Counted from the stretch's first letter, positions 18,265 through 63,270 are shown. The stretch is DNA of 64,000 bases from a virus (IMGVR_UViG_3300030104_006170), one strand, 5' to 3'. The notes: a model not told the origin generated them from the letters alone. Translations and numbers: made by a program.

Positions 18265-18269
18265 AAGAT

Positions 18270-28613: not shown

Positions 28614-28643
28614 AGTTTTTTTATTTTTTTTAAAAAGCGTTTA

Positions 28644-30170: not shown

Positions 30171-30232
30171 GTTTTTTTATTTTTTTAAAAGTTTATTATT
30201 ATACCGCACCGCATACCGCAGCATGGTTTATT

Positions 30233-30240
30233 AATAAATA
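30233..30240 (-). promoter_or_regulatory. candidate phage late promoter TATTTATT (scaffold-capsid operon)
   Basis: About 62 nt before GTG 30170. Confidence 0.5.
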
Positions 30241-30287
30241 TAAACTTTTTGTAAAAAATCTTTATTTTGAGGTTTTTAGTGGGGAAT

Positions 30288-30980: not shown

Positions 30981-31027
30981 AATATTCTTTTTAAATAAAT
31001 AGTGGTGTTAGACAAAAAAATCTTATA

Positions 31028-31465: not shown

Positions 31466-31507
31466 ACCATATATTTTTTATACTTTAAATATAAAAAATA
31501 CGTGTAG

Positions 31508-32248: not shown

Positions 32249-32272
32249 AAGTGTCTTTTATAATAAATATAC

Positions 32273-34117: not shown

Positions 34118-34141
34118 GTTGTTTAATAATATTAATTATTT

Positions 34142-34149
34142 TATAAATA
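34142..34149 (-). promoter_or_regulatory. candidate phage late promoter TATTTATA (portal)
   Basis: 24 nt before ATG 34117. Confidence 0.55.
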
Positions 34150-34161
34150 GTAAATCATTTG

Positions 34162-35907: not shown

Positions 35908-35911
35908 ATGC

Positions 35912-35919
35912 TATAAATA
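35912..35919 (-). promoter_or_regulatory. candidate phage late promoter TATTTATA (terminase)
   Basis: 4 nt before ATG 35907. Confidence 0.6.
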
Positions 35920-35938
35920 TCGTAAAAATATTAACTCT

Positions 35939-37258
35939 TTACAAGTTGTATAAAAAGTCTTTCTCGGCTTTTGTTAAAGAATCCATACCACTTTTATTTA
36001 TTTTGTCTAAAATAGTATCCATATCTAATTCTTCAACATCTGGAGTTGGCGGTGTGTCGTCTATTGGGGTGGGAGTTTCACCAGAAACATCTTCATAGTC
36101 TTCTTGTTTTAACTGTTTAACAATATCATCAACCATTTTCTTAACCTGGTCCTTACCTTTTTGACTACCGGACAATATTTCTTTAGCTAATTTAAGAAAT
36201 TCTTCAGCTTCTAGACTTACAAATTTAAAATAAAAGTAATTTTTAATTCTTTTTTGTTCCTCCATATCAAAAAAGTTATCTGGGTAAACTTCCAAAAATT
36301 TCTCCCAAATTACTGGTCCTAATCTTAAGTCCCATACTTCTGCTGGTAATGTATCTTCCATTCCAATTACCTCATCTGCCATTTCTGGGTCTGAAGGTAA
36401 ACCATGAGCTGATATATATTCCATAACACCCTTATATAATTCATGAACTAAAATAGGGAACATTAGTCCTGTTGCTTTAATTGTTGGTGGGTCTGTTTCT
36501 AGGTCTAGTTCTTCTTTTCCAGCCATTGCAGACTCTGCTCCTCCTCCACCCATCATACCTTCCATATCTGGCATCACCCAATAAAGTAAGTCATTTACTG
36601 ACATTACTATAGAATATAAACCAACTAAATCTGGATTAATATCATTCAATTTTTCATTAACTAAATGATACATATAGTGTGCTTTTTTTGCTGACCCTTG
36701 TATTAAAGAATTTATAAATCTTCTTTTTTGTTTTTCCAAATCTAATTTCTGAAGTCTTTTTGCGGCCTCATCTTCCATTTCAAAGTTAGGGAATTCTAGT
36801 TCTTTTTTCTTCTTTTTTTGAGGTTTCATTTGCATTCCAGAAGTGTCAGGTTTTTCTAATTTTGCGTCAAATTGTAAATCTCCTTCTGGTATACCCATTT
36901 CATCTACCACTAATTCTACAGCTAAATTTTCTAAAGTTTCTCTGTTTTGAGATTCTATTTGCATAATTCTTCTTGCTGCTTGCATTAACATTGGTTGTAA
37001 AGACATGAAAGTTTGTGGGTCAATATTTTCCACACCTGTCGCGTCTTTTACTTTTTGTACAACGTCTTGAAATCTTTGAGATGCGATTAATTCTTCAAAA
37101 TTATCTGGAATACCATCTTTATCTACATCTGGAAATGCTTGATGGCCACCTAGTGGGTGTTCCTGTGACCTTAACTTACGCTCAATGTCTGGTGACATTC
37201 TTTCTCTACCAGCACCATAATCAATAGGAGGTGCTTCATTAAGTTTTTTCTTAGCCAT
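35939..37258 (-). CDS. hypothetical late protein (N-terminal LNE|A site)
   Basis: Long ORF in late operon; MAKKKLNEA. Confidence 0.6.
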   Translation of the reverse strand: MAKKKLNEAPPIDYGAGRERMSPDIERKLRSQEHPLGGHQAFPDVDKDGIPDNFEELIASQRFQDVVQKVKDATGVENIDPQTFMSLQPMLMQAARRIMQIESQNRETLENLAVELVVDEMGIPEGDLQFDAKLEKPDTSGMQMKPQKKKKKELEFPNFEMEDEAAKRLQKLDLEKQKRRFINSLIQGSAKKAHYMYHLVNEKLNDINPDLVGLYSIVMSVNDLLYWVMPDMEGMMGGGGAESAMAGKEELDLETDPPTIKATGLMFPILVHELYKGVMEYISAHGLPSDPEMADEVIGMEDTLPAEVWDLRLGPVIWEKFLEVYPDNFFDMEEQKRIKNYFYFKFVSLEAEEFLKLAKEILSGSQKGKDQVKKMVDDIVKQLKQEDYEDVSGETPTPIDDTPPTPDVEELDMDTILDKINKSGMDSLTKAEKDFLYNL

Positions 37259-38330
37259 GTTGTGTTAGTGCTTTACCTAAATTAGTTGATTTTAACCAAT
37301 CCGGTAAAGAAGAGTCATTACCTCTAGCTTTAGGTTTTGGTTTGGTTTTTGGTTTTTCGAATGGTCCTCTTCTTTTCTTTTCTCCTGGTTTTGTTGGGGC
37401 TATGGTTGGTGTTTTTACTGGGGCAGTATCTACGGGAGCTCCTATATAGTCTCCTTCATCATCTCTATCAGTTTCACTTAATTCCATACCACCTACAGCA
37501 TTACCATTAAGTTTTATGTTACCTGATGGACAAATATTTAACTCTATAATTTGTTCGTTTTCTGGGTTTTGGAGGTACCCATTCATGTGTCCGTCATCAT
37601 CAAACCCATCAACTTCCACTGTCATAGGAGGTGTCATTTCTGAAGCGATATCCATAACCGTAGCAAATGAATCTTTTTGTGAATCAGTACCTATTGTATA
37701 TGGTGAATCCGTATCCACACCATTTAAATTTTCTTTTATAGTTTTTATAAAATTTCCTTTTGTAATTGTTGGTAGTTCCCTAGATTCCACTAACGACATT
37801 ATCCAACTCTCCAGAGCTTCTTGTTCATTTACATATTCAGGTAATTTTTCATAATCTGACTTACTCATCTTTGATGCTAATTTTTCTGCTGCTGCAGGGT
37901 TAACTGAGTATAAGTATTTTTGTTGAGCTTTGGAGGCAAATTTTTCTTCCACTTCTTGTGGTAGTTCAACTAACAATGGTTCTCCATCTATATCAACTTC
38001 TGGATTTCCCATTGGGTCGGTTTCTATATTTTTTTCTTCTTCGGTTTTATATTCTTCATTTGTAGTTACTGTTACCGAACCATCATCATTAGGTGTTACA
38101 GTACCGTCAACATTTAACCCACCATCATCCTGTTTCATTTTATCTACTTCTGATTTAGTATATGTTGTTTTTGTTACAGTTTTCTTTTCAGCTTCATTGA
38201 AGAGTTTTTTACTTAGTGCTTTTAACTGTGTGTCTGAAAATGAAGATAGGGTTCTATGAGTGAACCCTTCTTTTAAAAATCTTTTAACTAATTCTTTTCT
38301 ATTATTTAACATGCTCGAATTTTTTATCAA
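37251..38330 (-). CDS. hypothetical late protein with multiple [ILV]-x-E sites and Pro/Lys-rich tail (start may be 38312)
   Basis: Long ORF in late operon. Confidence 0.6.
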   Translation of the reverse strand: MIKNSSMLNNRKELVKRFLKEGFTHRTLSSFSDTQLKALSKKLFNEAEKKTVTKTTYTKSEVDKMKQDDGGLNVDGTVTPNDDGSVTVTTNEEYKTEEEKNIETDPMGNPEVDIDGEPLLVELPQEVEEKFASKAQQKYLYSVNPAAAEKLASKMSKSDYEKLPEYVNEQEALESWIMSLVESRELPTITKGNFIKTIKENLNGVDTDSPYTIGTDSQKDSFATVMDIASEMTPPMTVEVDGFDDDGHMNGYLQNPENEQIIELNICPSGNIKLNGNAVGGMELSETDRDDEGDYIGAPVDTAPVKTPTIAPTKPGEKKRRGPFEKPKTKPKPKARGNDSSLPDWLKSTNLGKALTQHG

Positions 38331-38709
38331 ATTTTAATATTATATCACGTGAATATAATTTATCTTTTACTTTTTGTAGTGTTTCCCCAAAATGAAAAAC
38401 TAACCTTTCTTCATCACCATTCTCATAGTCTTCTTCATATGTTTCCCACCCTAGAGCTATCACATTATCTAAAGCGTGTTCCATACTAAAATAATCTGAG
38501 TTTTGTACTAAATCTAAAGCTACTTTAGTATTATTTAATACTCCGACTGTTTCAATATATTGTAATTCTGGAGGTCCTGGTTTACCATGTGCTGGTATAG
38601 CGTCCCATTCATCACCCCATAATTCTTCTGTTTCACTACCAAAAATAAATTCATAAATGTTCTCATTTTTGTAATTGGGTCCTAGTTCATTTATGAATAA
38701 AAGTTTCAT
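38302..38709 (-). CDS. hypothetical protein
   Basis: ORF tiles operon. Confidence 0.6.
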   Translation of the reverse strand: MKLLFINELGPNYKNENIYEFIFGSETEELWGDEWDAIPAHGKPGPPELQYIETVGVLNNTKVALDLVQNSDYFSMEHALDNVIALGWETYEEDYENGDEERLVFHFGETLQKVKDKLYSRDIILKFDKKFEHVK

Positions 38710-38710
38710 C

Positions 38711-39904
38711 CTACTTTATACTACCATCTTTTTTTATAACTACTTTTTTGTTTGTGGATTCTAAAATTACATCCCCGTCCTTGTTTTCTTTATTTAATTT
38801 AATGTCCTGATTTTCTTTTAATACTTTTTTAATACTTAACTCTTGTTCTACTGTTTTAGCTACTTTAGTTAGTTTATTTTCTTTTAGTACATTTTTTAAT
38901 CTAGATTGTAAGTATTCTTTTGGGTCTACGGACTTAGTTTCTTTTTTTTTATCTTTTTTTGTAATATAAGATTCTAAAAGACTACCAACTCTTTGTTTTA
39001 GAGATTCCATAGCCATTTCTTCATCTTCCATATCCATATCCATATCTATCTCTTCATCACCCATATCCATGTCATCATCAGAACCTTCCATATCCATATC
39101 CATATCTACATCCATTTCTTCTTCATCACCATAACTTGTTTCATCCTCTTCAAATCTATCTAACACATCTTCTTTGTCCTCATCATCTAAATTATCTAAA
39201 TCAACAGCAGAAATGACAGAATTTAAAACATACTTAATATCTGAACTACCCATTTCTTCCTCAACGTCACGTAATTTTTGTCCTAACTTACCAGTTAACT
39301 TTTGGATTGATTTCATAAAACCTTCCATGTCTTCTTCGCCACCCATTTCATCTTCAACATCAACATCCATTTCTTCATCACCCATCTCATCTTCCATATC
39401 CATATCCATGTCAATATCGTCATCTCCCATATCGTCTTCCATATCCATGTCCATATCCATTTCTTCGTCACCACCTTCATTAGGTACATTTAAAACAAAT
39501 TTTTCTTGTTCATCCATTTCATTATAGGCTTCATCTACTTCATCATAAGCTTCATACATACTATCACCTTTTCCATCGTTATAAGCTTCGTTTAATGGTT
39601 TGAATATTAGATTCATTCTCTTAAGTGCAGCAGAATAACTTTTAAACCTATCTTTCTTTTTATTCATTCCACCACTTATATAGTCTAATTCAGATTCATT
39701 GATACCTGATTTTAAATAATAACCATCCTTTTCTTGGATTATAGCATATGTTTTACCGTCTGCTGCTTTTTTACTGAATGAATTAGTGTTAGTGTGATAC
39801 TCGTCATTTTTTTTGACTTCACCATAACGAGCAATTTCCATGATTCTTTTAATCTTGTCTTGTCCCGTTAATTTTTCACTTCCTATAGGTTTTAATTTTC
39901 CCAT
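38711..39904 (-). CDS. acidic Asp/Glu/Met low-complexity protein, putative head core component
   Basis: Two MDMDMDME-type tracts; several LxE sites. Confidence 0.55.
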   Translation of the reverse strand: MGKLKPIGSEKLTGQDKIKRIMEIARYGEVKKNDEYHTNTNSFSKKAADGKTYAIIQEKDGYYLKSGINESELDYISGGMNKKKDRFKSYSAALKRMNLIFKPLNEAYNDGKGDSMYEAYDEVDEAYNEMDEQEKFVLNVPNEGGDEEMDMDMDMEDDMGDDDIDMDMDMEDEMGDEEMDVDVEDEMGGEEDMEGFMKSIQKLTGKLGQKLRDVEEEMGSSDIKYVLNSVISAVDLDNLDDEDKEDVLDRFEEDETSYGDEEEMDVDMDMDMEGSDDDMDMGDEEIDMDMDMEDEEMAMESLKQRVGSLLESYITKKDKKKETKSVDPKEYLQSRLKNVLKENKLTKVAKTVEQELSIKKVLKENQDIKLNKENKDGDVILESTNKKVVIKKDGSIK

Positions 39905-39931
39905 TTTATTTATCTTTAATTTTAATTTATT

Positions 39932-40294
39932 TTAACTATTTTGTCCACCATTACCAATTATTGTTGGTTTCCATATATCGGAAGATGCACCTGAATAATT
40001 AACAGCTGATGGTGCTGTTATTCCGGACATTATTGATAGACAACTACAATCATAACATAGAAAATATACTCCAACAGGTGCAGCTGTTAGTTGTCCTGGA
40101 TTTAACAATAAATCTATATTTTCTGCTTCTCCTAGATTAAAAGTTACACCTCCTACTTGAAATGTGGCTGTGGTAGCACTAGCTACTACACCCGTACATG
40201 CATATGTTTTGTAGGTTGTATTTCTACTATCGTAAAGCGTAGTGCCTCCGATAGGTGTTGTTGGGATAGAACTTCCTCCGTAATTTCCTGCCAT
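39932..40294 (-). CDS. small G/S/T-rich late protein, possible capsid decoration
   Basis: Late motif upstream; LCYDCSC motif. Confidence 0.45.
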   Translation of the reverse strand: MAGNYGGSSIPTTPIGGTTLYDSRNTTYKTYACTGVVASATTATFQVGGVTFNLGEAENIDLLLNPGQLTAAPVGVYFLCYDCSCLSIMSGITAPSAVNYSGASSDIWKPTIIGNGGQNS

Positions 40295-40324
40295 AATTAA
40301 TTAATTATTTATTTATAAATATAC

Positions 40325-41068
40325 TTAAATACGAGAAACATTTTCATCTAATGTAAGATTTTTATCTATTAGATAATTTCTAACATCATTTAATTTCTTT
40401 AAGTATCCATTTCTACGTAAAAATTTAAATGTTAAATTTTCATATGAGTACTCTCCTTTATCTTCTAATCCAGCTCCCCTATACTTTTTTATTTTATTTT
40501 TAAACTTCTGTATGTCGTCTAATACCTCATCAGGTTCTTGTCTTCTAGAGTTAACTTCAAATTTGTCTATTTGGGACATCCAATTCTTTGACTTATTTAA
40601 TATTTTTTTGGAATCTATAGAAACTTCTTCTTCTTTTGGTTCTACTATCCAGTCATTATATAATACTGAATAAACACCACTAGCAAAATGTGGTTCCTTA
40701 CTATCTTGTACATATATCTCAACATCAAAACCTTTAACTGTCACATCTCGTAGTGAATTCCATATAATTCTTTTACTATCTAAATATTTTTTAAGTAATG
40801 GGTCAGTATTTTCAAAATCCATAAGTATGTGTAAATCAACATCAGAAAATTCAGACCAATTAAAATTAGATAAAGAACCGGTTAAAGTTATATCATCTAT
40901 ATCTAACTCTACATCTACAAAATCTTCATAATCTTTAACTATATCTAATAAAGAAATCCTAATTTCTGGTTTCATTTTATAGCTTTCGCCATCATAATAC
41001 CAAATATTAGGATTAAGTTCATCTTGTACTTTAAAGCTACTTATAATATTTTTGTTTGTAGTTTCCAT
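40325..41068 (-). CDS. Pol-beta superfamily nucleotidyltransferase
   Basis: ITLTGSLSNFNW..FSDVDLHI (GS...DxD) and VEIYVQ; late motif 4 nt upstream. Confidence 0.8.
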   Translation of the reverse strand: METTNKNIISSFKVQDELNPNIWYYDGESYKMKPEIRISLLDIVKDYEDFVDVELDIDDITLTGSLSNFNWSEFSDVDLHILMDFENTDPLLKKYLDSKRIIWNSLRDVTVKGFDVEIYVQDSKEPHFASGVYSVLYNDWIVEPKEEEVSIDSKKILNKSKNWMSQIDKFEVNSRRQEPDEVLDDIQKFKNKIKKYRGAGLEDKGEYSYENLTFKFLRRNGYLKKLNDVRNYLIDKNLTLDENVSRI

Positions 41069-41849: not shown

Positions 41850-43724
41850 TTACTTTACTTCTTCGTATTCTACATCTGTGGCGGATTCTTCAGAATTTCC
41901 TGTTGTGTCATCTGTCATATCTTGTTCGGTAGATTCATACATCTTAGTACTAATTTCTTGCCAAGTACTGTTTAATTTTTCTGTTAAATCTTCTACCCCT
42001 TCCATATCCTCTTCTTTACAAACTTCTCTAAGTTCTTTAATTGTGTTTTCTAGACGAGATTTATCGGTGTCTTCTAATTTATCCCCAAATTCCTTAATTT
42101 GTTTTTCAGTTTGGAACATCAGTGAGTCGGCCTCGTTTAACTTTTGAATCTTTTCTAGTTTTTTTGTATCTGCTTCTGAATTTGCCTCGGCTTCTTTTCT
42201 CATTCTCTCTATTTCATCGTCAGATAGACTACTTCCAGACTCAATCTTAATATTTTGTTGTTTACCAGTACCTTTATCTACAGCCTTAACATCTATAATA
42301 CCATTTGCGTCGATATCAAAAGTAACCTCTACTTGTGGAATACCTCTTGGTGATGGTGGTATGTCGGTTAGTTGGAATTTACCTAAAGTTCTATTGTCAG
42401 TGGCCATTGGTCTTTCACCTTGTAAGACATGAATGTCAACAGCTGGTTGGTTATCTACCGCTGTAGAGAAAACTTGTGATTTGGAGGTTGGGATTGTTGT
42501 GTTTGCATCTATTAATTTAGTCATTACCTGTCCCATAGTTTCAATACCTAAAGATAGTGGTGTTACATCTAATAATAAAACATCATTTACGTCACCCGCT
42601 AAAACACCTCCTTGAATGGCTGCTCCCATCGCTACCACTTCATCCGGATTAACCCCTTTAGATGGTTTTTTATTAAATAATTTTTCTACAGCTTCCTGTA
42701 CTGCTGGAATTCTAGTAGAACCCCCCACTAATAAAATTTCATCGATATCTGAAGCTTTTAATTTTGCGTCTTTTAAAGCTTTTCTACAGGGTGTTAAACT
42801 TTTTTTAACTAAATCACTAACCATAGACTCAAATTTTGCTCTAGATAAATTACGTACCAAATGTTTTGGTCCGGTATTGTCAGCTGTTATATATGGTAAA
42901 TTAATTTCGGTTGTATTTGAGTTTGATAGTTCTACTTTTGCTTTTTCTGCAGCCTCTCTAAGTCTTTGTAGTGCAGATGGGTCTTTAGATAGGTCCATAC
43001 CATTTTCATTATTAAACTCATCTAATAACCACTCGATTATTTTTTCATCAAAATTATCTCCACCTAAGTGAGTATCACCGTTAGTAGATTTTACTTCAAA
43101 CACACCGTCACCGAGTTCTAAGATTGACACGTCAAATGTACCACCACCTAGGTCATAAACAGCAACTGTCATATCTTTATTTTGTTTATCCATACCATAA
43201 GCTAATGCAGCAGCGGTAGGTTCATTTATAATTCTAAGTACTTCAAGACCGGCAATTTCTCCAGCTTCTTTTGTTGCTTTTCTTTGTTCGTCATTAAAAT
43301 AAGCTGGTACTGTTATTACAGCTTGGGTTACTTTTTCACCGAGATAGTCTTCGGCTGTCTTTTTTAGGTTTTGTAGTACTACTGCTGAAATTTCTTGTGG
43401 TACATACTTTTTATCATTCACGTCTATAGTTACAACACCTTTTGTTCCTTTAACTACTGAGTAAGGCATTTTTTTTGCTTCCTTACTAATTTCACTAAAT
43501 TTACTACCAATAAATCTTTTTACAGAATAAATAGTATTTTTAGGATTTGTAACTGCTTGTCTTTTTGCTGGGTCACCCACACTACGGTCACCATCTTTAA
43601 AAGATACAATAGAAGGTGTGGTTCTTTTTCCTTCTGCATTTACAATTATTTCTGGGTTTCCACCCTCTACCACAGAAACACACGAATTCGTTGTTCCTAA
43701 ATCAATTCCAATTACTTTTGTCAT
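41850..43724 (-). CDS. dnaK: Hsp70 chaperone DnaK
   Basis: [62 protein letters not shown]. Confidence 0.98.
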
Positions 43725-47071: not shown

Positions 47072-47079
47072 TATCTTTG
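47072..47079 (+). promoter_or_regulatory. Bacteroidota-type -7 promoter (TAnnTTTG), 4 nt before ATG
   Basis: TATCTTTG-TAGT-ATG; TTCG 20 nt upstream. Confidence 0.7.
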
Positions 47080-47083
47080 TAGT

Positions 47084-47584
47084 ATGAAATTAGAAAAAGC
47101 AAGAAATATAGCCCTTAAATTGATGAGACAACACGGTCTCAATGACTACACTTTTAAGTGGGACAGAGCGGTTCGTAGATTTGGTTGCCACAATGGTAGA
47201 TTAAAAACACTTTCGCTTTCTAGACCTATGACTCAACACGAAACTAACGAAAAAAGAGTAATTAATACCATCCTTCATGAAATTGCACATGGACTAGATT
47301 ATAAAAACAGAGGATATTCAAATCATGATTCCGAGTGGAAAAGAGTGGCTAGGTCTATTGGTTGTAGTGGTGAAAGATGTAGTAGTGGGTCTGGTGTTGA
47401 CAAGTCTCAATTTATGAAATGGGTAGCTACTTGCCCTAATTGTGAAAGAGAAGTTTATTATGCAAGAAAAACAAAAGTAGAGAAAGCGTGTGGTAGTTGT
47501 TGTAAAAAACATAATAACAACAAATACACATCAAAGTATAAGTTTAACTGGGAATTAAATCCCAAAGTTGTAAAATATAGATAA
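47084..47584 (+). CDS. SprT-like zinc metalloprotease
   Basis: TILHEIAH, HDSEWK, CxxC...CxxC zinc ribbon. Confidence 0.9.
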   Translation: MKLEKARNIALKLMRQHGLNDYTFKWDRAVRRFGCHNGRLKTLSLSRPMTQHETNEKRVINTILHEIAHGLDYKNRGYSNHDSEWKRVARSIGCSGERCSSGSGVDKSQFMKWVATCPNCEREVYYARKTKVEKACGSCCKKHNNNKYTSKYKFNWELNPKVVKYR

Positions 47585-51270: not shown

Positions 51271-52974
51271 TTACATCATTTCTTTTACAATGTCCATTAC
51301 TACTTTCATTTTATCTTCACCTTCAGGCCAATCATCTAACATCCCACTTATGAAACCTTCATCTGTGTCTTCCACTTTATCTGGTTCTCCTTGTGTATAA
51401 ATATCAGGTGTGTTTTTTGCTACCGTTCTAGCAGCTGCATTAAAATCTAGTGGATTATACTTTCTTAAACAGTCATCGTAAGTTTTGCCCTCACAATTTT
51501 GCAGTAGTACTGCGAGTAAAGCACCGTCTATTGGTCCACGTTTTCTACTGTAGTACTTTATGTCACCATCCCTTAGAACACTTCTGTACCTTGGCCAATT
51601 TTTTCCTACTGTTTCCAGGTATTTTGTTCTATCTTCAACTGAAGATGATGTTGTCCATCTTTTACTCTCTAATTCATTTGCGACATCTTTTATTTGGGTA
51701 TCTCCCAAAAATCTTGATACTGGGTATGGTGATATTTTGACTGACATATCTTTAAGTGCATTTTCCAATGTACCTGTGGTCCCTGATACCTTATTTTCCC
51801 ACATATAACAAATCTGTGATGCTGCTAAAACACTAGGGGCATCATTATAGACCGCCATAACTGCTGTATCATCTACTGTGTTTGGTATAAGATTTCCTAC
51901 TAGTGCGTCTTGTATCTTTTCTGCTTGTTCTAAAGCCTCCGCATCTGTGTAACCACCGTATTCTTCCACAAACCTTTTATTTGCCATTACATCTATATAC
52001 ATATCTGGAGTTAAACCTGCTTTTGCTTTACCCATAGTATTGTATGCCCAATCCATAAAATAATTAATCCCAAGGGTTATCGTTACCCAACCAAGAAGTA
52101 CTCTTCCTTGTATTGTCGTAAATAACCAGTTAAGTAAATTTTTCCCTTTCAATGCAACATATTCCCAACCGGTTCGTTTTATCGCCTTTTGGTAAATACT
52201 TTTAACCAATGGGTCGTCAGATTTCCTACCCATCATTGTAGCTAAATCCCCAATTCCAAAATCTTCTCTAACTAGTCTTTGGAATTCCTTTGAGTTTTTT
52301 AATATTTTTATCATCTCATCTTGGTAGTTTGGGTGATTTATTAAAGCCCCGAATATATCTTCTAACCTGCCCTTTCCACCAATTGTACCTGAGGTACTTA
52401 TATTGTTCATAATTTTAGTTATCTGTTCTTCTGGTATTTCTATTTGTTTTAACACCATTCTAAACTCATCTAAATTTTTAACTTTAACTACACCTGAAAT
52501 TGCGTCAATTAATGGTTTTTGAAATTCCGATGGTTTTCCTTTGATTAAGATGGTTGATACGTCTTCCATTGTCTCTCTAGCTATACGGTTTATCGCTATC
52601 AAAAATTCATCTTCCCCTTTACTCCAAGACTTACCCAGAGAATTTGCCTGAGATTCACTTATTTCTATACCCGCACCTTTAAATCTTTTCTTAAGAGCTT
52701 GTCCATTATTTCTTATTACAGCATTTGTTTTTTCCATAACTTCAGATAACACCTCCACCATATTAGAATTTTTAACTAATTTAGTGATAGGTATAATTCC
52801 TACCGCATCTCCAAACTCTCTTTTTATAGTTTTACCTAGTGCTATCATAGGTGAGTCACCGGCCTTTAGTAAACCTCTAAAAAATCTTAGTAAACTAGAC
52901 TGTTCTAAAATTAAGGGTTTTAATCCCATTATTTTACGAGTTCGATTTATTTCAGTTAAAATTGTTTTTTTCAT
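51271..52974 (-). CDS. class-B leader protein with hydrophobic helix and weak annexin-like repeat
   Basis: MKKTILTEINRTRKIMGLKPLILEQ; VLLGWVTITLGINYF; AEKIQDALVG...DDTAV. Confidence 0.5.
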   Translation of the reverse strand: MKKTILTEINRTRKIMGLKPLILEQSSLLRFFRGLLKAGDSPMIALGKTIKREFGDAVGIIPITKLVKNSNMVEVLSEVMEKTNAVIRNNGQALKKRFKGAGIEISESQANSLGKSWSKGEDEFLIAINRIARETMEDVSTILIKGKPSEFQKPLIDAISGVVKVKNLDEFRMVLKQIEIPEEQITKIMNNISTSGTIGGKGRLEDIFGALINHPNYQDEMIKILKNSKEFQRLVREDFGIGDLATMMGRKSDDPLVKSIYQKAIKRTGWEYVALKGKNLLNWLFTTIQGRVLLGWVTITLGINYFMDWAYNTMGKAKAGLTPDMYIDVMANKRFVEEYGGYTDAEALEQAEKIQDALVGNLIPNTVDDTAVMAVYNDAPSVLAASQICYMWENKVSGTTGTLENALKDMSVKISPYPVSRFLGDTQIKDVANELESKRWTTSSSVEDRTKYLETVGKNWPRYRSVLRDGDIKYYSRKRGPIDGALLAVLLQNCEGKTYDDCLRKYNPLDFNAAARTVAKNTPDIYTQGEPDKVEDTDEGFISGMLDDWPEGEDKMKVVMDIVKEMM

Positions 52975-55820: not shown

Positions 55821-55851
55821 TTTGGTGTTGTATTTATTTTTTGTATCTTTG
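55821..55851 (+). promoter_or_regulatory. Bacteroidota-type -33/-7 promoter
   Basis: TTTG-N19-TATCTTTG, then TAAGT-ATG (55857). Confidence 0.7.
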
Positions 55852-55856
55852 TAAGT

Positions 55857-56018
55857 ATGAAAGAAAAATTAAAAACACATAAATTAGTAGGAGTATCTTT
55901 AAGTGACCATCAAAAAAATGTGGCTATCGGAAAGTTAAAACAAAAAGGTTTAGCTCACGATGCTTACTGGAGTATGGGAAAGTCCTACTATTGGATTAAA
56001 CGAGGAAATAAAATTTAA
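55857..56018 (+). CDS. small basic hypothetical protein (start moved to 55857)
   Basis: ATG 5 nt after the -7 element. Confidence 0.5.
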   Translation: MKEKLKTHKLVGVSLSDHQKNVAIGKLKQKGLAHDAYWSMGKSYYWIKRGNKI

Positions 56019-58228: not shown

Positions 58229-58543
58229 TTAACTCATGTAGTATTTTAACTTTTCAGAATATACATTTTCTGGTTGTACACCCTGTAATGTCTCCATTAC
58301 ATCTCCTTTTTTAAAGATTTTTACACTAGGAATTCCTCTTATACCATATCTAGCCGCTACCTCTCTTTGTACATCTACATTAACTTTATATACGTTATCT
58401 GGAAAGGTTTGGGAGAGTTTACTTATCGTTGGGGTCAACATTCTGCATGGTCCACACCATGGGGCCCAAAAATCAATTAGTACAGCTTTTTTTTCAGTAT
58501 CATTTATAATTGAGTCAAATTGTTTTGTTGTTGTAATATCCAT
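58229..58543 (-). CDS. trxA: thioredoxin
   Basis: DFWAPWCGPCR, VNVD, YGIRGIP. Confidence 0.95.
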   Translation of the reverse strand: MDITTTKQFDSIINDTEKKAVLIDFWAPWCGPCRMLTPTISKLSQTFPDNVYKVNVDVQREVAARYGIRGIPSVKIFKKGDVMETLQGVQPENVYSEKLKYYMS

Positions 58544-58598
58544 AATTATTTTTTTTTAAAACTACTAATACTTTAACTAATAATAAATAGACTTTTAA

Positions 58599-58629
58599 TT
58601 GTTTAAATCATTTAATTTTATTATCTTTG
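58599..58629 (+). promoter_or_regulatory. Bacteroidota-type -33/-7 promoter, 4 nt before ATG
   Basis: TTG-N20-TATCTTTG-TAGT-ATG. Confidence 0.72.
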
Positions 58630-58633
58630 TAGT

Positions 58634-59236
58634 ATGAAAACAATAATAACTACATTACTAATTTTACTAGGGTTGAATACTTACTCACAAACGTGTGAGG
58701 TTGGTTTAATGGTTAATGGTAAGTTAACTTACTTTGAGTACGATTGTAACAATAAGGAACATGGTATAGATAGTATTAAGATAGCTAATTATAATTTTTT
58801 GACTTTATCTGAATTAAAAGAGTTGGACTTGTTAGTTTTTAGGTATGTTAACGAACATAGAATTAAAAATGGTCTAGGTAAACTACCTTGGGATTCGGAA
58901 CTTTATAAAATTACTGAGTCTCATACTAAATACCAGTTTGATAATGGTGTGGTAGAACACGAACAAAATGGAAAATCTTATGAAGAAAGAGTAAGAGAAA
59001 ATGGAATCTATATGGGTGAGTGTGTTTTGTTAACTGGTCCATGTGTTAATATAGATGATAAGGCTAGAAAAATTGTTCGTCAGTGGGTTGAGAGTCCAAC
59101 CCATAACCGTATATTGTTAGATATTAAAGCTAAGTCTATTTCGGTTTCCACAAAACTAGGTACTTTTTACTGTTCCTGGGATAATAATAAATTATATTTG
59201 GGTTCTGGCGTTTCTACTTTAAATGTTAGATATTAA
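58634..59236 (+). CDS. secreted CAP (SCP/PR-1) domain protein 1
   Basis: Signal peptide ending TYS-Q; VNEHR.KNGL..L.WD.EL...TE.H; WVESPTHNRILL. Confidence 0.85.
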   Translation: MKTIITTLLILLGLNTYSQTCEVGLMVNGKLTYFEYDCNNKEHGIDSIKIANYNFLTLSELKELDLLVFRYVNEHRIKNGLGKLPWDSELYKITESHTKYQFDNGVVEHEQNGKSYEERVRENGIYMGECVLLTGPCVNIDDKARKIVRQWVESPTHNRILLDIKAKSISVSTKLGTFYCSWDNNKLYLGSGVSTLNVRY

Positions 59237-60864
59237 CTGGTTTTATCCTCACTTTCACATTTTAAACCTATTGTGTATTGAGTAGTACTTAATGGTGCTA
59301 TAGCTTCTATTTTTACATTAGGTTTACCATAAACTTTGTTTATTGTTACACTCTGAGGTTTTCCAACTACCCCCTGTAAAAGTAATTTTTTAATTTCAGG
59401 GTCACTAGCATACTCAGATGCTCTATTGAGTAGTTGGTTATATGAACCACCACCTAATTCTTTAATTTTTTCCTCGTCTAACTCATAAACTTTTTTTTCT
59501 TTATTATAACTAATTAATTTACTTTTTCGGGCTTTTTTAAAGAATTTATTACTGGATATTTTTCCCATAACTTTATCCCTAACGTCTTTCCATTGATTAT
59601 ACTCACCACATTCTATATCAAAACCTAATTCATTAGCTTTTTTATATGCATAGTTAGTTATTGCCTCACTCCATCCCCAATACTCTTTAAACCATTCTCT
59701 ATTAGTCATACCTCTACGTGCTTCCCCATTAATATCCTTTAACTTACAAAAATGAAAAACACTCAAAGGTGTATTTTTCTTTTTACCATACTGACTTCTA
59801 ATCTTTTGTAATACATCTTTAGTCTCTTGAGGTATAGTACTTATTAATCTTTTTTCGATTTCGTCAATTTTTTGTTGAGCGGCTAAATGGTTTTCTACTT
59901 CTTTTCTAAGTGGGCCTAACTCAATCGTGACATCAATTTTATCACCTGTTTTTTTGTTTGTTCCCGCATTTGGTATTGTTACAAATGGGTCATCCATTTG
60001 TTCTGGATTGTTACTTGTAAAAGGAACATAAGTTACCTCACCATTATAAGTGATTTTAAAAGCGTCAGGAACAAGCCAAGGGTTAAACTGCAAAGTTATT
60101 TTACCTTCAGTATATTTTCCTAGATTTAAATTACCTTCTTTATCTAATTTTACTCCTGATTTCTCTTGTGGTTCTAAAGTTGCAATCCAATTATTATTTT
60201 TATCACCTTGTTTACCCTTAACACTTAATTTTTTCCCACAACCATAAATTGCGCGACCTTTTACTTTTTTGGTTCCCTCTACATTTATCGCCACAAATTT
60301 TGTAGAATTTGTTTGTGGGTTGGCTTTTACTAGTGCCGATAATTCTTTCCAGTTTTCATTAACTTTATCTTGGTCAAGATTATTATACTTTCCACCCCAT
60401 TTTTTAGATATAAATTTATTTAGTAATTCTAAAATTACTTCCCCTCGTTTTCTAGCTAATATTTTATTGTCTGGTTCTTCATTCCCATATGAAAAATCTA
60501 CTTGTTCTTGGGAATATCCTTTAGGGACCGCTCTGTTAGCTGGGGTTGGTGAGGCTCCTGAATCAATAGATATACTTTTTGGTGTGTAATCTGCAGCTAA
60601 ATTCTTTTTTAATTTTATAATAAAGTCTTTTAAAGAAGGTAACATATTTTTCATTGTAATTCGTGAAACATCAGTGACACCTTCATTACCTTTTGCTATA
60701 GGTAGTACTATATTATCTGGGAATGTAATAGGTGTCATACTATTACCAACTAATACATCCACGTCCGGTAAAGTTCTTACTACATTTCTAGATTGTTCCA
60801 ATAAAACTTCTAGACCCATAATTTCTTTAACTCTATTAATTTCTGATATAATATTCTTTTCCAT
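59233..60864 (-). CDS. class-B leader protein with OmpA_C-like segment
   Basis: MEKNIISEINRVKEIMGLEVLLEQ; ISIDSGAS...DNKILARKRGE.I...L. Confidence 0.5.
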   Translation of the reverse strand: MEKNIISEINRVKEIMGLEVLLEQSRNVVRTLPDVDVLVGNSMTPITFPDNIVLPIAKGNEGVTDVSRITMKNMLPSLKDFIIKLKKNLAADYTPKSISIDSGASPTPANRAVPKGYSQEQVDFSYGNEEPDNKILARKRGEVILELLNKFISKKWGGKYNNLDQDKVNENWKELSALVKANPQTNSTKFVAINVEGTKKVKGRAIYGCGKKLSVKGKQGDKNNNWIATLEPQEKSGVKLDKEGNLNLGKYTEGKITLQFNPWLVPDAFKITYNGEVTYVPFTSNNPEQMDDPFVTIPNAGTNKKTGDKIDVTIELGPLRKEVENHLAAQQKIDEIEKRLISTIPQETKDVLQKIRSQYGKKKNTPLSVFHFCKLKDINGEARRGMTNREWFKEYWGWSEAITNYAYKKANELGFDIECGEYNQWKDVRDKVMGKISSNKFFKKARKSKLISYNKEKKVYELDEEKIKELGGGSYNQLLNRASEYASDPEIKKLLLQGVVGKPQSVTINKVYGKPNVKIEAIAPLSTTQYTIGLKCESEDKTS

Positions 60865-60868
60865 ATAA

Positions 60869-60876
60869 TATAAATA
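60869..60876 (-). promoter_or_regulatory. candidate phage late promoter TATTTATA
   Basis: 4 nt before ATG 60864. Confidence 0.6.
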
Positions 60877-60921
60877 CTGGTAACCTGTATTAAAATACCT
60901 CGTATAATTAAGTACAATTCA

Positions 60922-60953
60922 TTTGGTCATTTAATTTAAATTTATTATCTTTG
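60922..60953 (+). promoter_or_regulatory. Bacteroidota-type -33/-7 promoter, 4 nt before ATG
   Basis: TTTG-N20-TATCTTTG-TAGT-ATG. Confidence 0.75.
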
Positions 60954-60957
60954 TAGT

Positions 60958-61497
60958 ATGAAAAATATAACAACAACCATATTATTAGTTTTACTATCTT
61001 TATTAAGTTATTCTCAAGAGTACTACAGAGACACTACTATAGAACGAGCTGTTTTTAACGAAGTAAACCGACACAGAGATAGTCTGGGATTACACATGGT
61101 AAAATTTAACTCGGATAATATCCTAGCTTCTCCATGGGCAGAGACATTAACTAAACACGACTTAGAGACAGGTGGAAAGATTTATCATTGTGGTTGTAAT
61201 CCTGGTGTTGAGATTATTGCTATTAAGGTTATTGGTGATGAGGATAGAGTAACGATGGGTATAGATGAAATAGCTAAAAAAATAGTTCTAGCGTGGGATA
61301 ATTCTCCTTCTCATAAAGAAGGTATGGAAGATATTAATATGAAAAGAGGTTTCAATGCTGTGTACGTATTCAAAAGTAAAAGATACGGAGGTAAGTACGT
61401 GGCGTTATCAGTGTACCAATTTATTAGAGATAAAGAATATTATGTAAACTTAGACTGGGACGAAAATAAAAAAGTACCTAACCAATTCTTAGATTAA
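60958..61497 (+). CDS. secreted CAP (SCP/PR-1) domain protein 2
   Basis: Signal peptide ending SYS-Q; VNRHRDSLGL; AWDNSPSHKEGM. Confidence 0.8.
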   Translation: MKNITTTILLVLLSLLSYSQEYYRDTTIERAVFNEVNRHRDSLGLHMVKFNSDNILASPWAETLTKHDLETGGKIYHCGCNPGVEIIAIKVIGDEDRVTMGIDEIAKKIVLAWDNSPSHKEGMEDINMKRGFNAVYVFKSKRYGGKYVALSVYQFIRDKEYYVNLDWDENKKVPNQFLD

Positions 61498-61500
61498 TAA

Positions 61501-61525
61501 AAAAAGGACCGTATGGTCCTTTTTT
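61501..61525. terminator. bidirectional intrinsic terminator
   Basis: AAAAAGGACC-GTAT-GGTCCTTTTT; same stem as at 50119. Confidence 0.85.
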
Positions 61526-61554
61526 ATATTAGTATATTATAATTTATTGTGATG

Positions 61555-62754
61555 TTACTTCATAGCTATAATCACCTCTTCTGCTTCTTTTTTAACAACA
61601 GATTTCTTTCTTGGTGACTTTTGACTCTTCCAAGTAATTTTGCCTGGAATATAAACTACCATACTGACGATAATTCCTTGTCCTGCCATATCTGTTTCTG
61701 TTCCAGTTTCTGTACCTACAGTTCTACCTGGTGTCCCTTCTCTAGCTGGTTGTTCTGTACTTACTATAACATCAGCTCTCATTTCGTCACCACCAACAGA
61801 ATACTTATAAGAATCTACCTTAATACCTACTTTTTCTAACTCTTTACCTAAATTCTGTGCTCTTAAATAAGCTAGTACCTGATTACCTGTTTTTGGTTGT
61901 GTAAACTTACCTGTAGTATTTGTAGTAATTTGTTCATCCGTAAAATTAGAATACTTATCACCAACATTCTTTCTCCACACCGCTACATTAGCGATTGGTT
62001 CATCTGAAGCTACACCATTAATTATTACGTTTGTTACCACATTACCTTTTGAAGCTGAGTTTTGGATTTGTTTGATTAGTTGTTTCATTTTTCCTGGGTC
62101 AGGAATAACTTCTAAAACATTAAATGCTGAACCTCCTGGGATTGGCTCACCTTCCGATGCTACACTTCCTTCTGTACCCCCTTTAGTAACTGACTGGTAT
62201 GTCTTTTTTAATCTCGACGTTGAGAATTGTATTAGTTCGTCTGTTATGGCTTCGATATTTGTTTCGGTTTCTGATTCTCCTTCATTATAAGACCACCCCA
62301 CTATTTGTCTTGTTCCGAAATTTTTAAAATTAAACTCGTTAAGTTTTATACACCACTTATTAGGTGTATATTCTCTACCATCATCAATAACTACTAAATC
62401 ACTAGAATCTTCTGACTGTACTAACCTCACTTTTTCATTTATACCATCATCTGAATCTAACATATCTGGTCTTAACATCCAAGCCATATATTGCCATTCT
62501 CTACCCATTTTTGACAAATTGTCACCTTTAAATACTTTCATAAGGGACCTTCTTAAATCAGTAGCCCAAGATTCAAAATCATATCCTCCTGCTATGTTTG
62601 GTCTTACTTTTTCTACATTATCGTATAACTCACCTTTATAAGTTTCTAAAAAATCTGTCCATTTAGATATACTTCTGTAAAAATTTTCCTTTATTAAGTC
62701 AAGGCCCATTATTTCACGAGCTCTGTTTACTTCATTTAATATTTCTTTTTTCAT
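61555..62754 (-). CDS. class-B leader protein with OmpA_C-like domain
   Basis: MKKEILNEVNRAREIMGLDLIKEN; VIINGVASD...GNQVLAYLRAQNL...L...RADVIV. Confidence 0.55.
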   Translation of the reverse strand: MKKEILNEVNRAREIMGLDLIKENFYRSISKWTDFLETYKGELYDNVEKVRPNIAGGYDFESWATDLRRSLMKVFKGDNLSKMGREWQYMAWMLRPDMLDSDDGINEKVRLVQSEDSSDLVVIDDGREYTPNKWCIKLNEFNFKNFGTRQIVGWSYNEGESETETNIEAITDELIQFSTSRLKKTYQSVTKGGTEGSVASEGEPIPGGSAFNVLEVIPDPGKMKQLIKQIQNSASKGNVVTNVIINGVASDEPIANVAVWRKNVGDKYSNFTDEQITTNTTGKFTQPKTGNQVLAYLRAQNLGKELEKVGIKVDSYKYSVGGDEMRADVIVSTEQPAREGTPGRTVGTETGTETDMAGQGIIVSMVVYIPGKITWKSQKSPRKKSVVKKEAEEVIIAMK

Positions 62755-62787
62755 ATTCTTTTTTTTTAATAAATATTTAATTTATCG

Positions 62788-63270
62788 TTAATTCCACAAT
62801 ACGTGGACTGTTTTATCATTAAAGTCTATTTCTAACCCTGTCGGAAACACACTGTGTGAGAATAGTTCATCCGACATTTGGTCTTCGTAATGCCACTTAC
62901 CTTCTTCATCACTACTAAATCCACCCATGTCGTCTACCATTAATTCGATTTCTTTTTCTACCTCTACTTTGGTGTAATCTTCATCATATATTTCTACCAT
63001 CGCATTTATAATTACACTAGTGGTGTAAACACTCACGTCTTTGATTCCCCAACTTCTTACATCCATATCATATCTCCATTTAACATAACAGTTTGTATAT
63101 GTTACATCCATATCCTGACCACTATACTCGGTGAAATATTTTTCTAACCCGTAAAAACTAACATCTTGGACTTCAGTATTAAATGCGTTTGGGTCATCTG
63201 AATATTGTTCTTTTATTACCTTCTCAGTAATATTAACTAATTGACTTTCCTTTACGATTATTTTTTTCAT
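62788..63270 (-). CDS. class-A leader protein, acidic cargo
   Basis: MKKIIVKESQLVNITEKVIKEQ; three late motifs upstream. Confidence 0.6.
   Translation of the reverse strand: MKKIIVKESQLVNITEKVIKEQYSDDPNAFNTEVQDVSFYGLEKYFTEYSGQDMDVTYTNCYVKWRYDMDVRSWGIKDVSVYTTSVIINAMVEIYDEDYTKVEVEKEIELMVDDMGGFSSDEEGKWHYEDQMSDELFSHSVFPTGLEIDFNDKTVHVLWN

What the first reader, a model, noticed from the sequence alone, without database searches (positions are those of the whole stretch)
58599..62775. Duplicated convergent cassette: early secreted CAP protein paired with late leader-bearing OmpA-like protein
Seen: the same architecture occurs twice in tandem (58634+/59233- and 60958+/61555-). Each copy is a host-type promoter TATCTTTG-TAGT-ATG driving a signal-peptide CAP protein, facing a late-motif gene for a class-B leader protein with an OmpA_C-like segment (N..LA..R[AG]). 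The upstream DNA is shared (CATTTAATTT..TATTATCTTTGTAGTATGAAAA), but the proteins are highly diverged. Inference: cognate pairs. A virion-packed protein that acts at the periplasm or peptidoglycan during ejection is matched by an early periplasmic CAP protein that could neutralise the same protein from superinfecting phage, like an effector/immunity or exclusion pair. CAP proteins have no settled prokaryotic function.
Basis: partly seen in the sequence, partly recalled or inferred. Interest (0 to 1): 0.8.

Follow-up and report, generated by a model that had tools for sequence, protein, structure and literature searches.

The report
Swappable phage cargo plus CAP cassettes
A marine jumbo phage carries two copies of a swappable two-gene unit, a probably virion-packed protein with a cell-wall-binding-like domain facing a secreted CAP-family protein; relatives carry none to two such units, which suggests but does not prove that the two proteins work against each other in the cell envelope.

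Summary
The window comes from a contig of at least 240 kb: an uncultured, distantly T4-like phage whose promoters and signal peptides are of Bacteroidota type. Between a conserved 160-aa gene and a thioredoxin gene lie two convergent pairs.

Each pair has two genes:
- A Sec-signal CAP-domain gene behind a canonical Bacteroidota -33/-7 promoter that predicts a leaderless mRNA.
- A gene with the phage's late-type motif, whose product starts with a 23-aa leader ending in [LI]xE and contains a divergent OmpA-like module.

In 53 non-redundant related loci this slot holds 0, 1 or 2 such pairs:
- All 59 terminal cargo genes but one are followed by a secreted-protein gene.
- Each cargo family keeps one characteristic partner family.
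- Cargo and partner share a low dS, far below that of the flanks, so they move together.
- Extra CAP genes occur without a cargo; a cargo never lacks a partner.
- Cargo families without the OmpA motif have non-CAP partners.

Three points weaken the "cognate pair" reading. A crossover inside the repeated CAP 5' sequence removes exactly one pair in a near-identical relative. The same CAP family serves two unrelated cargo families. Binding is not shown.

Verdict: a real exchangeable cassette. The effector/neutraliser reading is plausible but unproven.

The parts
58229..58543 (-). Thioredoxin gene; conserved right-hand flank of the variable slot
   Evidence: Precomputed Pfam Thioredoxin on homologues in relatives; used as the slot boundary in 53 loci.
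58594..58660 (+). Repeat copy 1. CAP1 promoter (TTG ending at -33, position 58601; TATCTTTG at 58622-58629; predicted leaderless start at the ATG at 58634) plus the start of the signal peptide
   Evidence: Repeat family D1, 78% identity with 60918-60984; motif positions; crossover site in L012.
58634..59236 (+). CAP1: 200-aa Sec-signal CAP/SCP-domain protein (family s2)
   Evidence: Pfam PF00188 E 3.7e-12; PHROG 16914 E 3.9e-8. The signal peptide is read from the sequence; no predictor was run.
59233..60864 (-). P543: leader-bearing cargo protein (family c3). Leader is residues 1-23 (60796-60864), ending LLE-Q; OmpA-like module is about residues 33-211 (60232-60768); then a beta-sandwich and a helical C-terminal half
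60869..60876 (-). Late-type motif TATTTATA, 12 nt upstream of P543
   Evidence: The same motif lies just upstream of the terminase, portal and other structural or leader-bearing genes.
60918..60984 (+). Repeat copy 2. CAP2 promoter (TTTG at 60922-60925, ending at -33; TATCTTTG at 60946-60953; ATG at 60958) plus the start of the signal peptide
60958..61497 (+). CAP2: 179-aa Sec-signal, divergent CAP-domain protein (family s1)
   Evidence: hhalign against the Pfam-positive s2 family, 97.5%, E 6e-12, without signal peptides. The s2 HMM hits CAP2 at 1.1e-11. Atlas neighbours are CAP clusters. No Pfam hit.
61499..61526 (.). Bidirectional intrinsic terminator hairpin between CAP2 and P399
   Evidence: Free energy -18 kcal/mol, z -6.4, 0 of 200 shuffles as stable.
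61555..62754 (-). P399: leader-bearing cargo protein (family c4). Leader is residues 1-23 (62686-62754), ending IKE-N; then a helical domain and a beta domain; OmpA-like module at about residues 195-335 (61750-62172)
62768..62776 (-). Late-type motif variant ATATTTATT upstream of P399
   Evidence: Relatives L003 and L004 have the exact ATATTTATA at the same place.
62788..63270 (-). 160-aa class-A-leader gene; conserved left-hand flank (anchor) of the variable slot
   Evidence: Anchor for 80 metagenome loci.

Best explanation
The stretch is a hyperplastic slot in a T4-like jumbo phage of Bacteroidota. It holds exchangeable two-gene cassettes; this genome has two.

Shown:
- Each cassette has (a) a gene with the phage's late-type motif, whose product carries a conserved 23-aa N-terminal leader ending in [LIVM]-x-E followed by a variable body that nearly always contains a divergent OmpA-like module, and (b) a convergent gene for a signal-peptide protein of the CAP superfamily. 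In this genome the CAP gene sits behind a canonical Bacteroidota -33/-7 promoter placed so that the mRNA would start at the AUG.
- Cargo and partner are gained, lost and transferred horizontally as a unit. Crossovers in the repeated CAP 5' sequence are one route.

Inferred:
- The leader is a capsid-targeting propeptide removed by the gp21-like prohead protease. The cargo is therefore packed in the head and ejected at infection, where its OmpA-like module engages peptidoglycan in the periplasm.
- The CAP protein is made early by host RNA polymerase and exported to the periplasm. There it counteracts that class of ejected protein, either from later-arriving phages (as T4 Spackle acts against gp5) or from the infecting particle itself, limiting envelope damage.
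- The neutralising step is the weakest link.
For: Phage context: terminase of T4 type; gp23-like capsid protein, gp21-like protease (phrog_207, E 7.6e-46) and portal in the window.

Leader:
- It is shared by more than 10 cargo families that are otherwise unrelated.
- 54 of 56 distinct leaders have [LIVM]xE within 12 residues after the IMG core, mostly ending at residue 23.
- T4 gp21 cuts after L/I-x-E, and a 10-residue CTS suffices for packing (PMC9026906).

Cassette behaviour in 53 non-redundant complete loci:
- 4 are empty. 59 cargo genes are directly followed by a convergent secreted-protein gene. One is not, and there the partner is split by a frameshift. 9 extra CAP genes are not directly behind a cargo.
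- Family pairing is constant: c1-s3, c3-s2, c4-s1, c5-s4, c6-s5, c7-s2, c8-s2. The pairs occur in many different combinations.
- dS of a cargo and its CAP agree with each other and are far below the flanks. Window against L005: 0.08 and 0.15 against 0.80-1.80. L031 against L059: 0.11 and 0.12 against 0.52-1.27.

OmpA theme:
- The helix motif is present in all members of 8 families.
- A profile of that region gives 17 PDB hits, 14 of them OmpA-like domains, best E 0.0024. Pfam OmpA is the only family hit by several members (7 of 14, best E 1.6e-5).
- The two cargo lineages without the motif have non-CAP partners. One of them includes an SLT-like protein, and its partner is a NAGPA glycosidase.

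Precedent: T4 Spackle is an early periplasmic inhibitor of a virion peptidoglycan enzyme (PMC7677548).
Against: - No direct evidence exists that the cargo is in virions, that the leader is cleaved, that the timing differs, or that CAP meets the cargo.
- The CAP2 family (66-72% identical throughout) partners both c4 and c2, which share nothing detectable beyond the leader. c1, c2 and c7 share a 200-aa region yet have three different CAP families.
- CAP genes are under purifying selection (omega 0.08-0.22) while cargo runs at 0.4-0.8.
- In T4 itself, CTS-tagged proteins are delivered to the cytoplasm, not the periplasm.
- Neither window cargo reaches the Pfam OmpA cut-off, and P543 lacks the Asp of the canonical peptidoglycan-binding pair.
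- Half of the relatives' CAP genes lack a forward TAnnTTTG.
Confidence: 0.4

Rival explanations
1. Linkage without interaction. The two genes are independent accessory genes that travel together only because the sole conserved, recombination-prone sequences lie at the outer 5' ends of each convergent pair: the CAP promoter with the start of the signal peptide, and the late motif with the leader. The CAP protein would be an early envelope-modifying or host-takeover factor. The cargo would be an ejected protein with its own target.
For: - L012 is 98% identical to the window in the flanks, yet lacks window positions of about 58670-60933. The junction lies inside the 63-nt stretch common to both D1 repeats.
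- The breakpoint between L005 and the window lies in the CAP signal-peptide codons.
- T4-type phages are known to shuffle accessory genes by recombination between repeated promoter cassettes (PMC2839356).
- CTS-tagged internal proteins are a known polymorphic set (PMC3012670).
- CAP-to-cargo family relations are many-to-many.
- Selection regimes are unequal.
Against: - Across at least nine anciently diverged cargo families the partner is always a CAP protein rather than a random accessory gene. The only non-CAP partners go with cargo that lacks the OmpA motif.
- A cargo is never left without a partner, whereas CAP genes do occur alone.
- Recombination at 5' repeats explains co-transfer. It does not explain why this gene content persists.
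Confidence: 0.33
2. Helper, not inhibitor. The early periplasmic CAP protein cooperates with the cargo ejected by the same infecting particle, for example by processing, positioning or sealing a peptidoglycan-anchored entry structure. On this reading the pair is needed within a single infection.
For: - Strict presence of a partner behind every cargo.
- Conservative evolution of CAP compared with cargo.
- The same CAP family serves different cargo bodies that keep an OmpA-like module.
Against: - Four relatives have no cassette at all, so the function is dispensable.
- Extra CAP genes without a cargo are not expected for a pure helper.
- No precedent is known to me.
Confidence: 0.15
3. The leader is not a capsid-targeting signal and the cargo proteins are not virion components; they could be cytoplasmic late proteins with a shared regulatory or assembly peptide. 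In that case the periplasmic CAP proteins cannot meet them, and the OmpA-like resemblance is a reused fold.
For: - Virion location is inferred only by analogy.
- The OmpA evidence for the two window proteins is sub-threshold.
Against: - A gp21-like protease is encoded nearby.
- The leader ends in the protease's motif in 54 of 56 variants.
- The same late-type motif precedes the structural genes.
- Unchecked notes from other windows of this genome report many leader-tagged enzymes.
Confidence: 0.1

Closest known systems
T4 internal proteins (IPI-III, Alt) with a capsid-targeting sequence cut by prohead protease gp21
   Same: A short conserved N-terminal leader on otherwise unrelated proteins, ending at L/I-x-E. 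A gp21-like protease lies in the same head module. The genes carry a late-type motif. The locus is polymorphic between related phages (PMC9026906, PMC3012670).
   Different: The leader is 23 aa with a different sequence (core EINRxREIMGL). The cargo carries OmpA-like modules, which suggest a periplasmic rather than cytoplasmic target. Every cargo gene has a convergent secreted-protein gene, which T4 IP genes do not. Cleavage and packaging are untested.
T4 Spackle (gp61.3) and gp5 tail lysozyme: superinfection exclusion
   Same: An early, signal-peptide, periplasmic phage protein matched to a virion-borne protein that acts on peptidoglycan (PMC7677548).
   Different: There is no homology: CAP fold here, not the Spackle fold. 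Spackle and gene 5 are not adjacent or exchanged as a cassette. The target here is a leader-tagged, OmpA-like protein, not a lysozyme. Inhibition is not shown.
Polymorphic toxin / effector-immunity loci (CDI, Rhs, T6SS)
   Same: A conserved N-terminal delivery part with a variable body, an adjacent family-specific partner gene, extra partner genes without an effector, cassette-wise horizontal exchange, and a fast-evolving effector.
   Different: The locus is in a phage and delivery would be by the virion. Partners are convergent and in a different temporal class rather than co-transcribed. Partner genes are conserved rather than co-diversifying. No toxicity is shown.
PeSL regulatory cassettes of T4-type hyperplastic regions
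   Same: Repeated promoter-bearing sequences flank non-essential genes and serve as crossover points for deletion and replacement (PMC2839356).
   Different: The repeat here is a Bacteroidota-type promoter plus signal-peptide codons, without the stem-loop part. The shuffled units have a constant two-gene content.
Bacterial and phage CAP/SCP proteins (PF00188; PHROG 16914, 'sporulation protein', YkwD-like)
   Same: CAP1 passes the Pfam threshold, and CAP2 is linked to it by profile comparison. Both are secreted, as are most bacterial members.
   Different: To my knowledge no function is established for prokaryotic members. The constant pairing with a leader-tagged OmpA-like gene is not part of the family description.

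Membership tests
CAP superfamily (PF00188) | Score above the Pfam gathering cut-off | tested here: met
   CAP1 scores 47.6 bits against a cut-off of 21.1. Relatives of families s2 and s3 score 24-34 bits. CAP2 itself has no Pfam hit.
CAP superfamily (PF00188) | For CAP2: profile-level homology to confirmed members over the core, including the W..SP.H motif | tested here: met
   hhalign of s1 against s2 gives 97.5%, E 6e-12, 107 columns, signal peptides removed. hmmsearch with the s2 HMM gives 1.1e-11. In the Atlas, 83 of 100 neighbours are CAP clusters. No structure model was made.
OmpA-like peptidoglycan-binding domain (PF00691) | Score above the Pfam gathering cut-off (27.2 bits) | tested here: not met
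   No hit for P399, P543 or their 19 homologues. Relatives' cargo families give only sub-threshold hits: 18.1 bits, 22.2 bits, best E 1.6e-5.
OmpA-like peptidoglycan-binding domain (PF00691) | Beta-alpha-beta-alpha-beta-beta fold | tested here: inconclusive
OmpA-like peptidoglycan-binding domain (PF00691) | Signature helix N..LS..RA..V..YL and the Asp/Arg pair that binds the peptide stem | tested here: inconclusive
   The helix motif with Arg is present in both window proteins and in all members of 8 cargo families. The Asp equivalent is present in P399 (ASDE) but not evident in P543 (GASPTP). The comparison with the canonical motif rests on PDB matches and my own knowledge.
T4-type capsid-targeted, gp21-processed head proteins | gp21-family prohead protease encoded by the phage | tested here: met
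   Window 30291-30980 matches phrog_207 (head maturation protease) at E 7.6e-46, between the portal and the major capsid protein.
T4-type capsid-targeted, gp21-processed head proteins | Shared N-terminal propeptide ending at L/I-x-E on unrelated proteins | tested here: met
   54 of 56 distinct leaders have it.
T4-type capsid-targeted, gp21-processed head proteins | Presence in the virion and removal of the propeptide | not testable with these tools
   Needs virion mass spectrometry. The phage is uncultured: no INPHARED match for P543 or CAP1, and the terminase is below 30% identical to any record.
Spackle-like superinfection exclusion pair | The early periplasmic protein binds and inhibits the virion protein | not tested
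   Only a structure-prediction attempt was made; see Tried and rejected. Needs biochemistry or genetics.
Effector-immunity-type polymorphic locus | Family-specific adjacency, partner-only (orphan) genes, effector never alone | tested here: met
   59 adjacencies; 9 extra CAP genes; 1 cargo without an intact partner, where the partner is frameshifted.
Effector-immunity-type polymorphic locus | One-to-one specificity of partner and effector | tested here: not met
   s1 partners both c4 and c2. s2 partners c3, c7, c8 and c10. c2-type cargo is directly followed by s5 in 4 loci.

The most novel reading that the evidence does not exclude
Marine jumbo phages of Bacteroidota carry a polymorphic, virion-delivered effector system. 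Capsid-targeted proteins with peptidoglycan-binding or peptidoglycan-cleaving modules are ejected into the periplasm. Family-matched periplasmic CAP-domain proteins, made early, neutralise them. This would give kin and competitor exclusion or self-protection, with extra CAP genes acting as collected immunities. It would be the first defined function for a prokaryotic or viral CAP domain, and an effector-immunity logic operating between phages.
Probability: 0.22. Interest if true: 0.85.

Novelty: new variant of a known kind. Interest (0 to 1): 0.63.

Why it matters
- CAP/SCP proteins are widespread in bacteria and phages, and to my knowledge none has an assigned function there. Here the family has a constant genomic partner across more than 50 related phage loci, which gives a concrete, testable hypothesis.
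- The locus extends the T4 idea of leader-tagged, polymorphic head cargo to an uncultured marine phage lineage. It suggests that such cargo can be aimed at the cell wall.
- The cassette is exchanged between diverged phages, and its cargo evolves fast. That marks it as a site of ongoing conflict, either phage against phage or phage against host.
- If the neutraliser reading fails, the locus is still a clear case of modular shuffling by repeated Bacteroidota-type promoter sequences.

Tried and rejected
Complex prediction
- Mature P399 (residues 25-399) with mature CAP2 (residues 21-179), using my own alignments, gave score 0.00 in two runs. The tool's verdict was 'no answer', and the controls were not run. 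This is neither for nor against binding.

Structure and sequence searches that found nothing clear
- Foldseek of both whole models against the PDB: no match at E 0.001 or better; OmpA/MotB chains appear only among weak rows.
- AlphaFold DB clusters for P399: only weak rows, four of them OmpA-like.
- phmmer and profile searches of P399, P543 and CAP2 against PDB sequences: nothing relevant.
- Pfam on all members of the P399 and P543 families: no OmpA hit.
- hhalign between cargo bodies with leaders removed: no significant link for c4 (P399) to any other family. Only c1/c2/c7 and c8/c10 are clearly related, with weak links at the OmpA helix.
- The N-terminal helical and beta domains of P399 and the C-terminal helical half of P543 remain without an assignment.

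Cultured relatives
- Megablast of 12 kb, and tblastn of P543 and CAP1, against INPHARED: no match.
- P543 pattern scan of IMG/VR: no relative.
- No whole genome is held for the window.

Readings considered and dropped
- Simple recent tandem duplication: the two CAPs share only about 30 alignable residues by BLASTP and the cargo bodies share none. The two cassettes belong to different families that occur separately in relatives.
- Co-variation of CAP identity with cargo family at matched anchor identity: the effect is real but expected for any adjacent genes in a mosaic region, so I do not count it as evidence of interaction.

Not attempted
- RNA-seq timing. Metatranscriptome contigs cannot resolve temporal class.

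Full report
CONTEXT

The window has 31.6% G+C. Its protein P543 is recorded on a contig of 240,042 bp. The terminase is of T4 type, 27-29% identical to Flavobacterium phage immuto and to an uncultured 484-kb phage. The window also holds a gp23-like major capsid protein, a gp21-like head maturation protease (30291-30980, phrog_207, E 7.6e-46) and a portal. No cultured phage in INPHARED matches the region or its proteins. No whole genome is held.

WHAT IS AT 58599-62775

Reading leftwards from the conserved 160-aa gene (62788-63270, -), the order is:
- P399 (61555-62754, -)
- CAP2 (60958-61497, +)
- P543 (59233-60864, -)
- CAP1 (58634-59236, +)
- thioredoxin (58229-58543, -)

CAP1 passes Pfam CAP at E 3.7e-12. 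CAP2 has no Pfam hit, and BLASTP aligns only 30 residues of it to CAP1. With signal peptides removed, the CAP2 family aligns to the CAP1 family at 97.5% probability, E 6e-12. Its Atlas neighbours are CAP clusters. Both proteins begin with a typical n-h-c signal sequence ending SYSQ; this is read from the sequence, and no predictor was run.

The two CAP genes share 67 nt of 5' DNA at 78% identity. That stretch contains TATCTTTG placed so that its G is 5 nt before the A of the ATG, and (T)TTG ending at -33. From my own knowledge this is the Bacteroidota -33/-7 promoter, and it predicts a leaderless mRNA. TATCTTTG occurs five times in the 64 kb, about as often as composition predicts, but four of the five copies sit 4-5 nt before a start codon.

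P543 and P399 share only residues 1-23. P543 is preceded by TATTTATA. The same motif sits just upstream of the terminase, portal and several other leader-bearing genes. P399 has a one-mismatch form that is exact in relatives. A strong bidirectional terminator separates CAP2 from P399. CAP1 and P543 overlap by 4 nt.

THE LEADER

Across all relatives the cargo genes start with M-x-K-x-I-L-x-E-[IV]-N-R-x-R-E-I-M-G-L. In 54 of 56 distinct leaders a [LIVM]-x-E follows within 12 residues, usually ending at residue 23. T4 gp21 cuts after L/I-x-E, and a 10-residue capsid-targeting sequence is enough to load proteins into T4 heads (PMC9026906). T-even internal proteins are a diverse set that share only that sequence (PMC3012670). 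With a gp21-like protease encoded in the same window, a capsid-targeting, protease-removed propeptide is the most likely reading. It remains an inference.

THE OmpA-LIKE MODULE

Neither window protein reaches a Pfam OmpA score. The evidence for an OmpA-like module is as follows:
- The helix motif x..L[AS]..R[AG] is found in only three window ORFs of 80 aa or more; two of them are the cargo proteins. It is present in every member of eight cargo families.
- A profile of this region from five relatives' cargo families gives 17 PDB sequences at E up to 1. Fourteen of them are OmpA-like peptidoglycan-binding domains, best E 0.0024.
- Pfam OmpA is the only family hit by several members of that alignment: 7 of 14, best E 1.6e-5.
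- P543 is 25% identical over 645 aa to 817-aa relatives that have a sub-threshold Pfam OmpA hit.

I conclude that a divergent OmpA-like module is likely. Peptidoglycan binding is untested.

RELATIVES: THE SLOT IS VARIABLE AND THE PAIR IS THE UNIT

Homologues of P399 and P543 exist only in marine metagenomes. Their contigs are syntenic with the window. Using the 160-aa gene as an anchor, I fetched 80 further loci and annotated everything between the anchor and thioredoxin.

In 53 non-redundant complete loci:
- The slot is empty in 4.
- 59 cargo genes are directly followed by a convergent signal-peptide gene.
- Four cargo genes are followed by another cargo gene that is itself followed by such a gene.
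- One cargo lacks an intact partner, and there the partner is split by a frameshift.
- Nine CAP genes are not directly behind a cargo.

With leaders trimmed, the cargo falls into families that keep one partner family each:
- c1 with s3
- c3 (P543) with s2 (CAP1)
- c4 (P399) with s1 (CAP2)
- c5 with s4
- c6 with s5
- c7, c8 and c10 with s2
- c2 with s1, with an s5 gene interposed in four loci

These pairs occur alone and in many combinations with each other. Families s1 to s5 are all linked to the Pfam-positive s2 family by profile comparison, at 89-97.5% probability.

The two cargo lineages without the OmpA motif have non-CAP partners:
- c11 is paired with an unassigned 148-aa protein.
- c12/c13 is paired with a NAGPA glycosidase (E 1.7e-12). 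c13 has a weak SLT lytic transglycosylase match (E 0.0068).

HOW PAIRS MOVE

Locus L012 is 98% identical to the window in its flanks and keeps CAP2, but it lacks window positions of about 58670-60933, that is P543 and most of CAP1. Its junction falls in the 63 nt common to the two promoter and signal-peptide repeats. It also has a c5-s4 pair in place of P399, which leaves CAP2 without its usual cargo. The breakpoint between the window and L005 lies in the CAP signal-peptide codons. This resembles the modular shuffling by repeated promoter cassettes described for T4-type phages (PMC2839356).

Synonymous divergence shows exchange of whole pairs:
- Window against L005: dS is 0.08 (P543) and 0.15 (CAP1), against 0.80, 0.99 and 1.80 for the three flanking genes.
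- L031 against L059: dS is 0.11 and 0.12, against 1.27 and 0.52.

Cargo evolves with omega 0.4-0.8. CAP evolves with omega 0.08-0.22, and the flanks with 0.05-0.16 in close comparisons.

INTERPRETATION

The cassette is real, modular and dispensable, and its content is constrained. The partner is a CAP protein whenever the cargo has the OmpA-like motif. A cargo is never left alone, while CAP genes can be. This is the pattern of effector-immunity loci. The closest functional precedent in phages is T4 Spackle, an early periplasmic inhibitor of the virion lysozyme gp5 (PMC7677548).

Against a strict cognate-inhibitor model:
- The CAP2 family serves two cargo families with no detectable similarity.
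- Related cargo families use different CAP families.
- CAP is conserved while cargo races.
- Recombination at the 5' repeats would keep pairs together whatever their function.
- About half of the relatives' CAP genes carry a different upstream cassette, with a conserved AATGTTTAACC and no forward TAnnTTTG, so the 'host-type early promoter' holds only for the window's subgroup.

I put the neutraliser reading at about 0.4, linkage without interaction at about 0.33, a helper role at 0.15, and a non-virion cargo at 0.1.

EARLIER NOTES

Unchecked first-stage notes on other windows of this genome report many leader-tagged enzymes, including SleB-like and M23 peptidases, behind the same ATATTTAT motif. 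That would fit a virion loaded with cell-wall-active cargo. I could not verify it, because only this window is held.

Noticed in passing
window 47072-47086 and 55844-55859: Two further copies of TATCTTTGTA(A)GT directly before an ATG: the gene at 47084-47584 and a small ORF starting near 55857. The same predicted leaderless Bacteroidota-type promoter therefore serves other genes of this phage.
   Followed up: partly
window 19780, 24263, 25734, 34149, 35919, 41080, 45948, 55011, 55806, 60876, 63280, 63721: The motif (T)ATATTTATA lies a few to about 40 nt upstream of the terminase, portal and many leader-bearing genes. It is a candidate late promoter and is the reverse complement of the T4 late promoter TATAAATA.
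   Followed up: partly
L089:7488-10325 and L093:3530-6349: Cargo proteins of 939-945 aa in family c3 contain an internal copy of the class-B leader near residue 300, 61% identical to P543 residues 2-24. They look like a fusion of an extra N-terminal module onto a leader-plus-P543-like protein, possibly with an internal protease site.
   Followed up: no
L093:7584-10368 and L069: A different cassette type: a class-B-leader protein (422-426 aa), then a class-A-leader protein with a weak SLT lytic transglycosylase match (E 0.0068). In L093 these face a secreted NAGPA phosphodiester glycosidase (E 1.7e-12); in L069 they face a short HExxH-like protein.
   Followed up: partly
L060, L061, L064, L067: In four relatives thioredoxin follows the 160-aa anchor gene within about 60-85 nt. 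The whole cassette slot is empty, so it is dispensable.
   Followed up: yes
L001:10013-10327, L062, L063:3936-4289, L086: A 117-118-aa gene without signal peptide or family match sits next to thioredoxin in some relatives, on the same strand as the CAP genes. It is not CAP-like.
   Followed up: no
upstream of CAP genes in L001, L002, L008 and about half of all loci: A second type of upstream cassette with a conserved AATGTTTAACC about 20 nt before the ATG, and an inverted TATCTTTGTAGT further upstream. In L008 that inverted copy points to the divergent thioredoxin gene. Both cassette types occur with all CAP families.
   Followed up: partly
L032 against L042: Sharp mosaic: thioredoxin and the following gene are nearly identical (dS 0.02-0.07), while the anchor gene has dS 1.05 and the cassette genes 0.23-0.42. 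This indicates recent recombination within or beside the slot.
   Followed up: no
window 26784-41068: T4-like head module on the minus strand: major capsid protein 26784-28613, probable scaffold 28647-30113, protease 30291-30980, portal 32276-34117, terminase 34165-35907. Beyond it lie a DnaK-like gene (41850-43724) and a large sugar-biosynthesis and glycosyltransferase block (about 560-19000).
   Followed up: partly
window 51271-52974: A third class-B-leader protein (567 aa) lies in a four-gene late operon without a CAP neighbour and without the OmpA helix motif. The leader is therefore not restricted to the cassette slot.
   Followed up: partly
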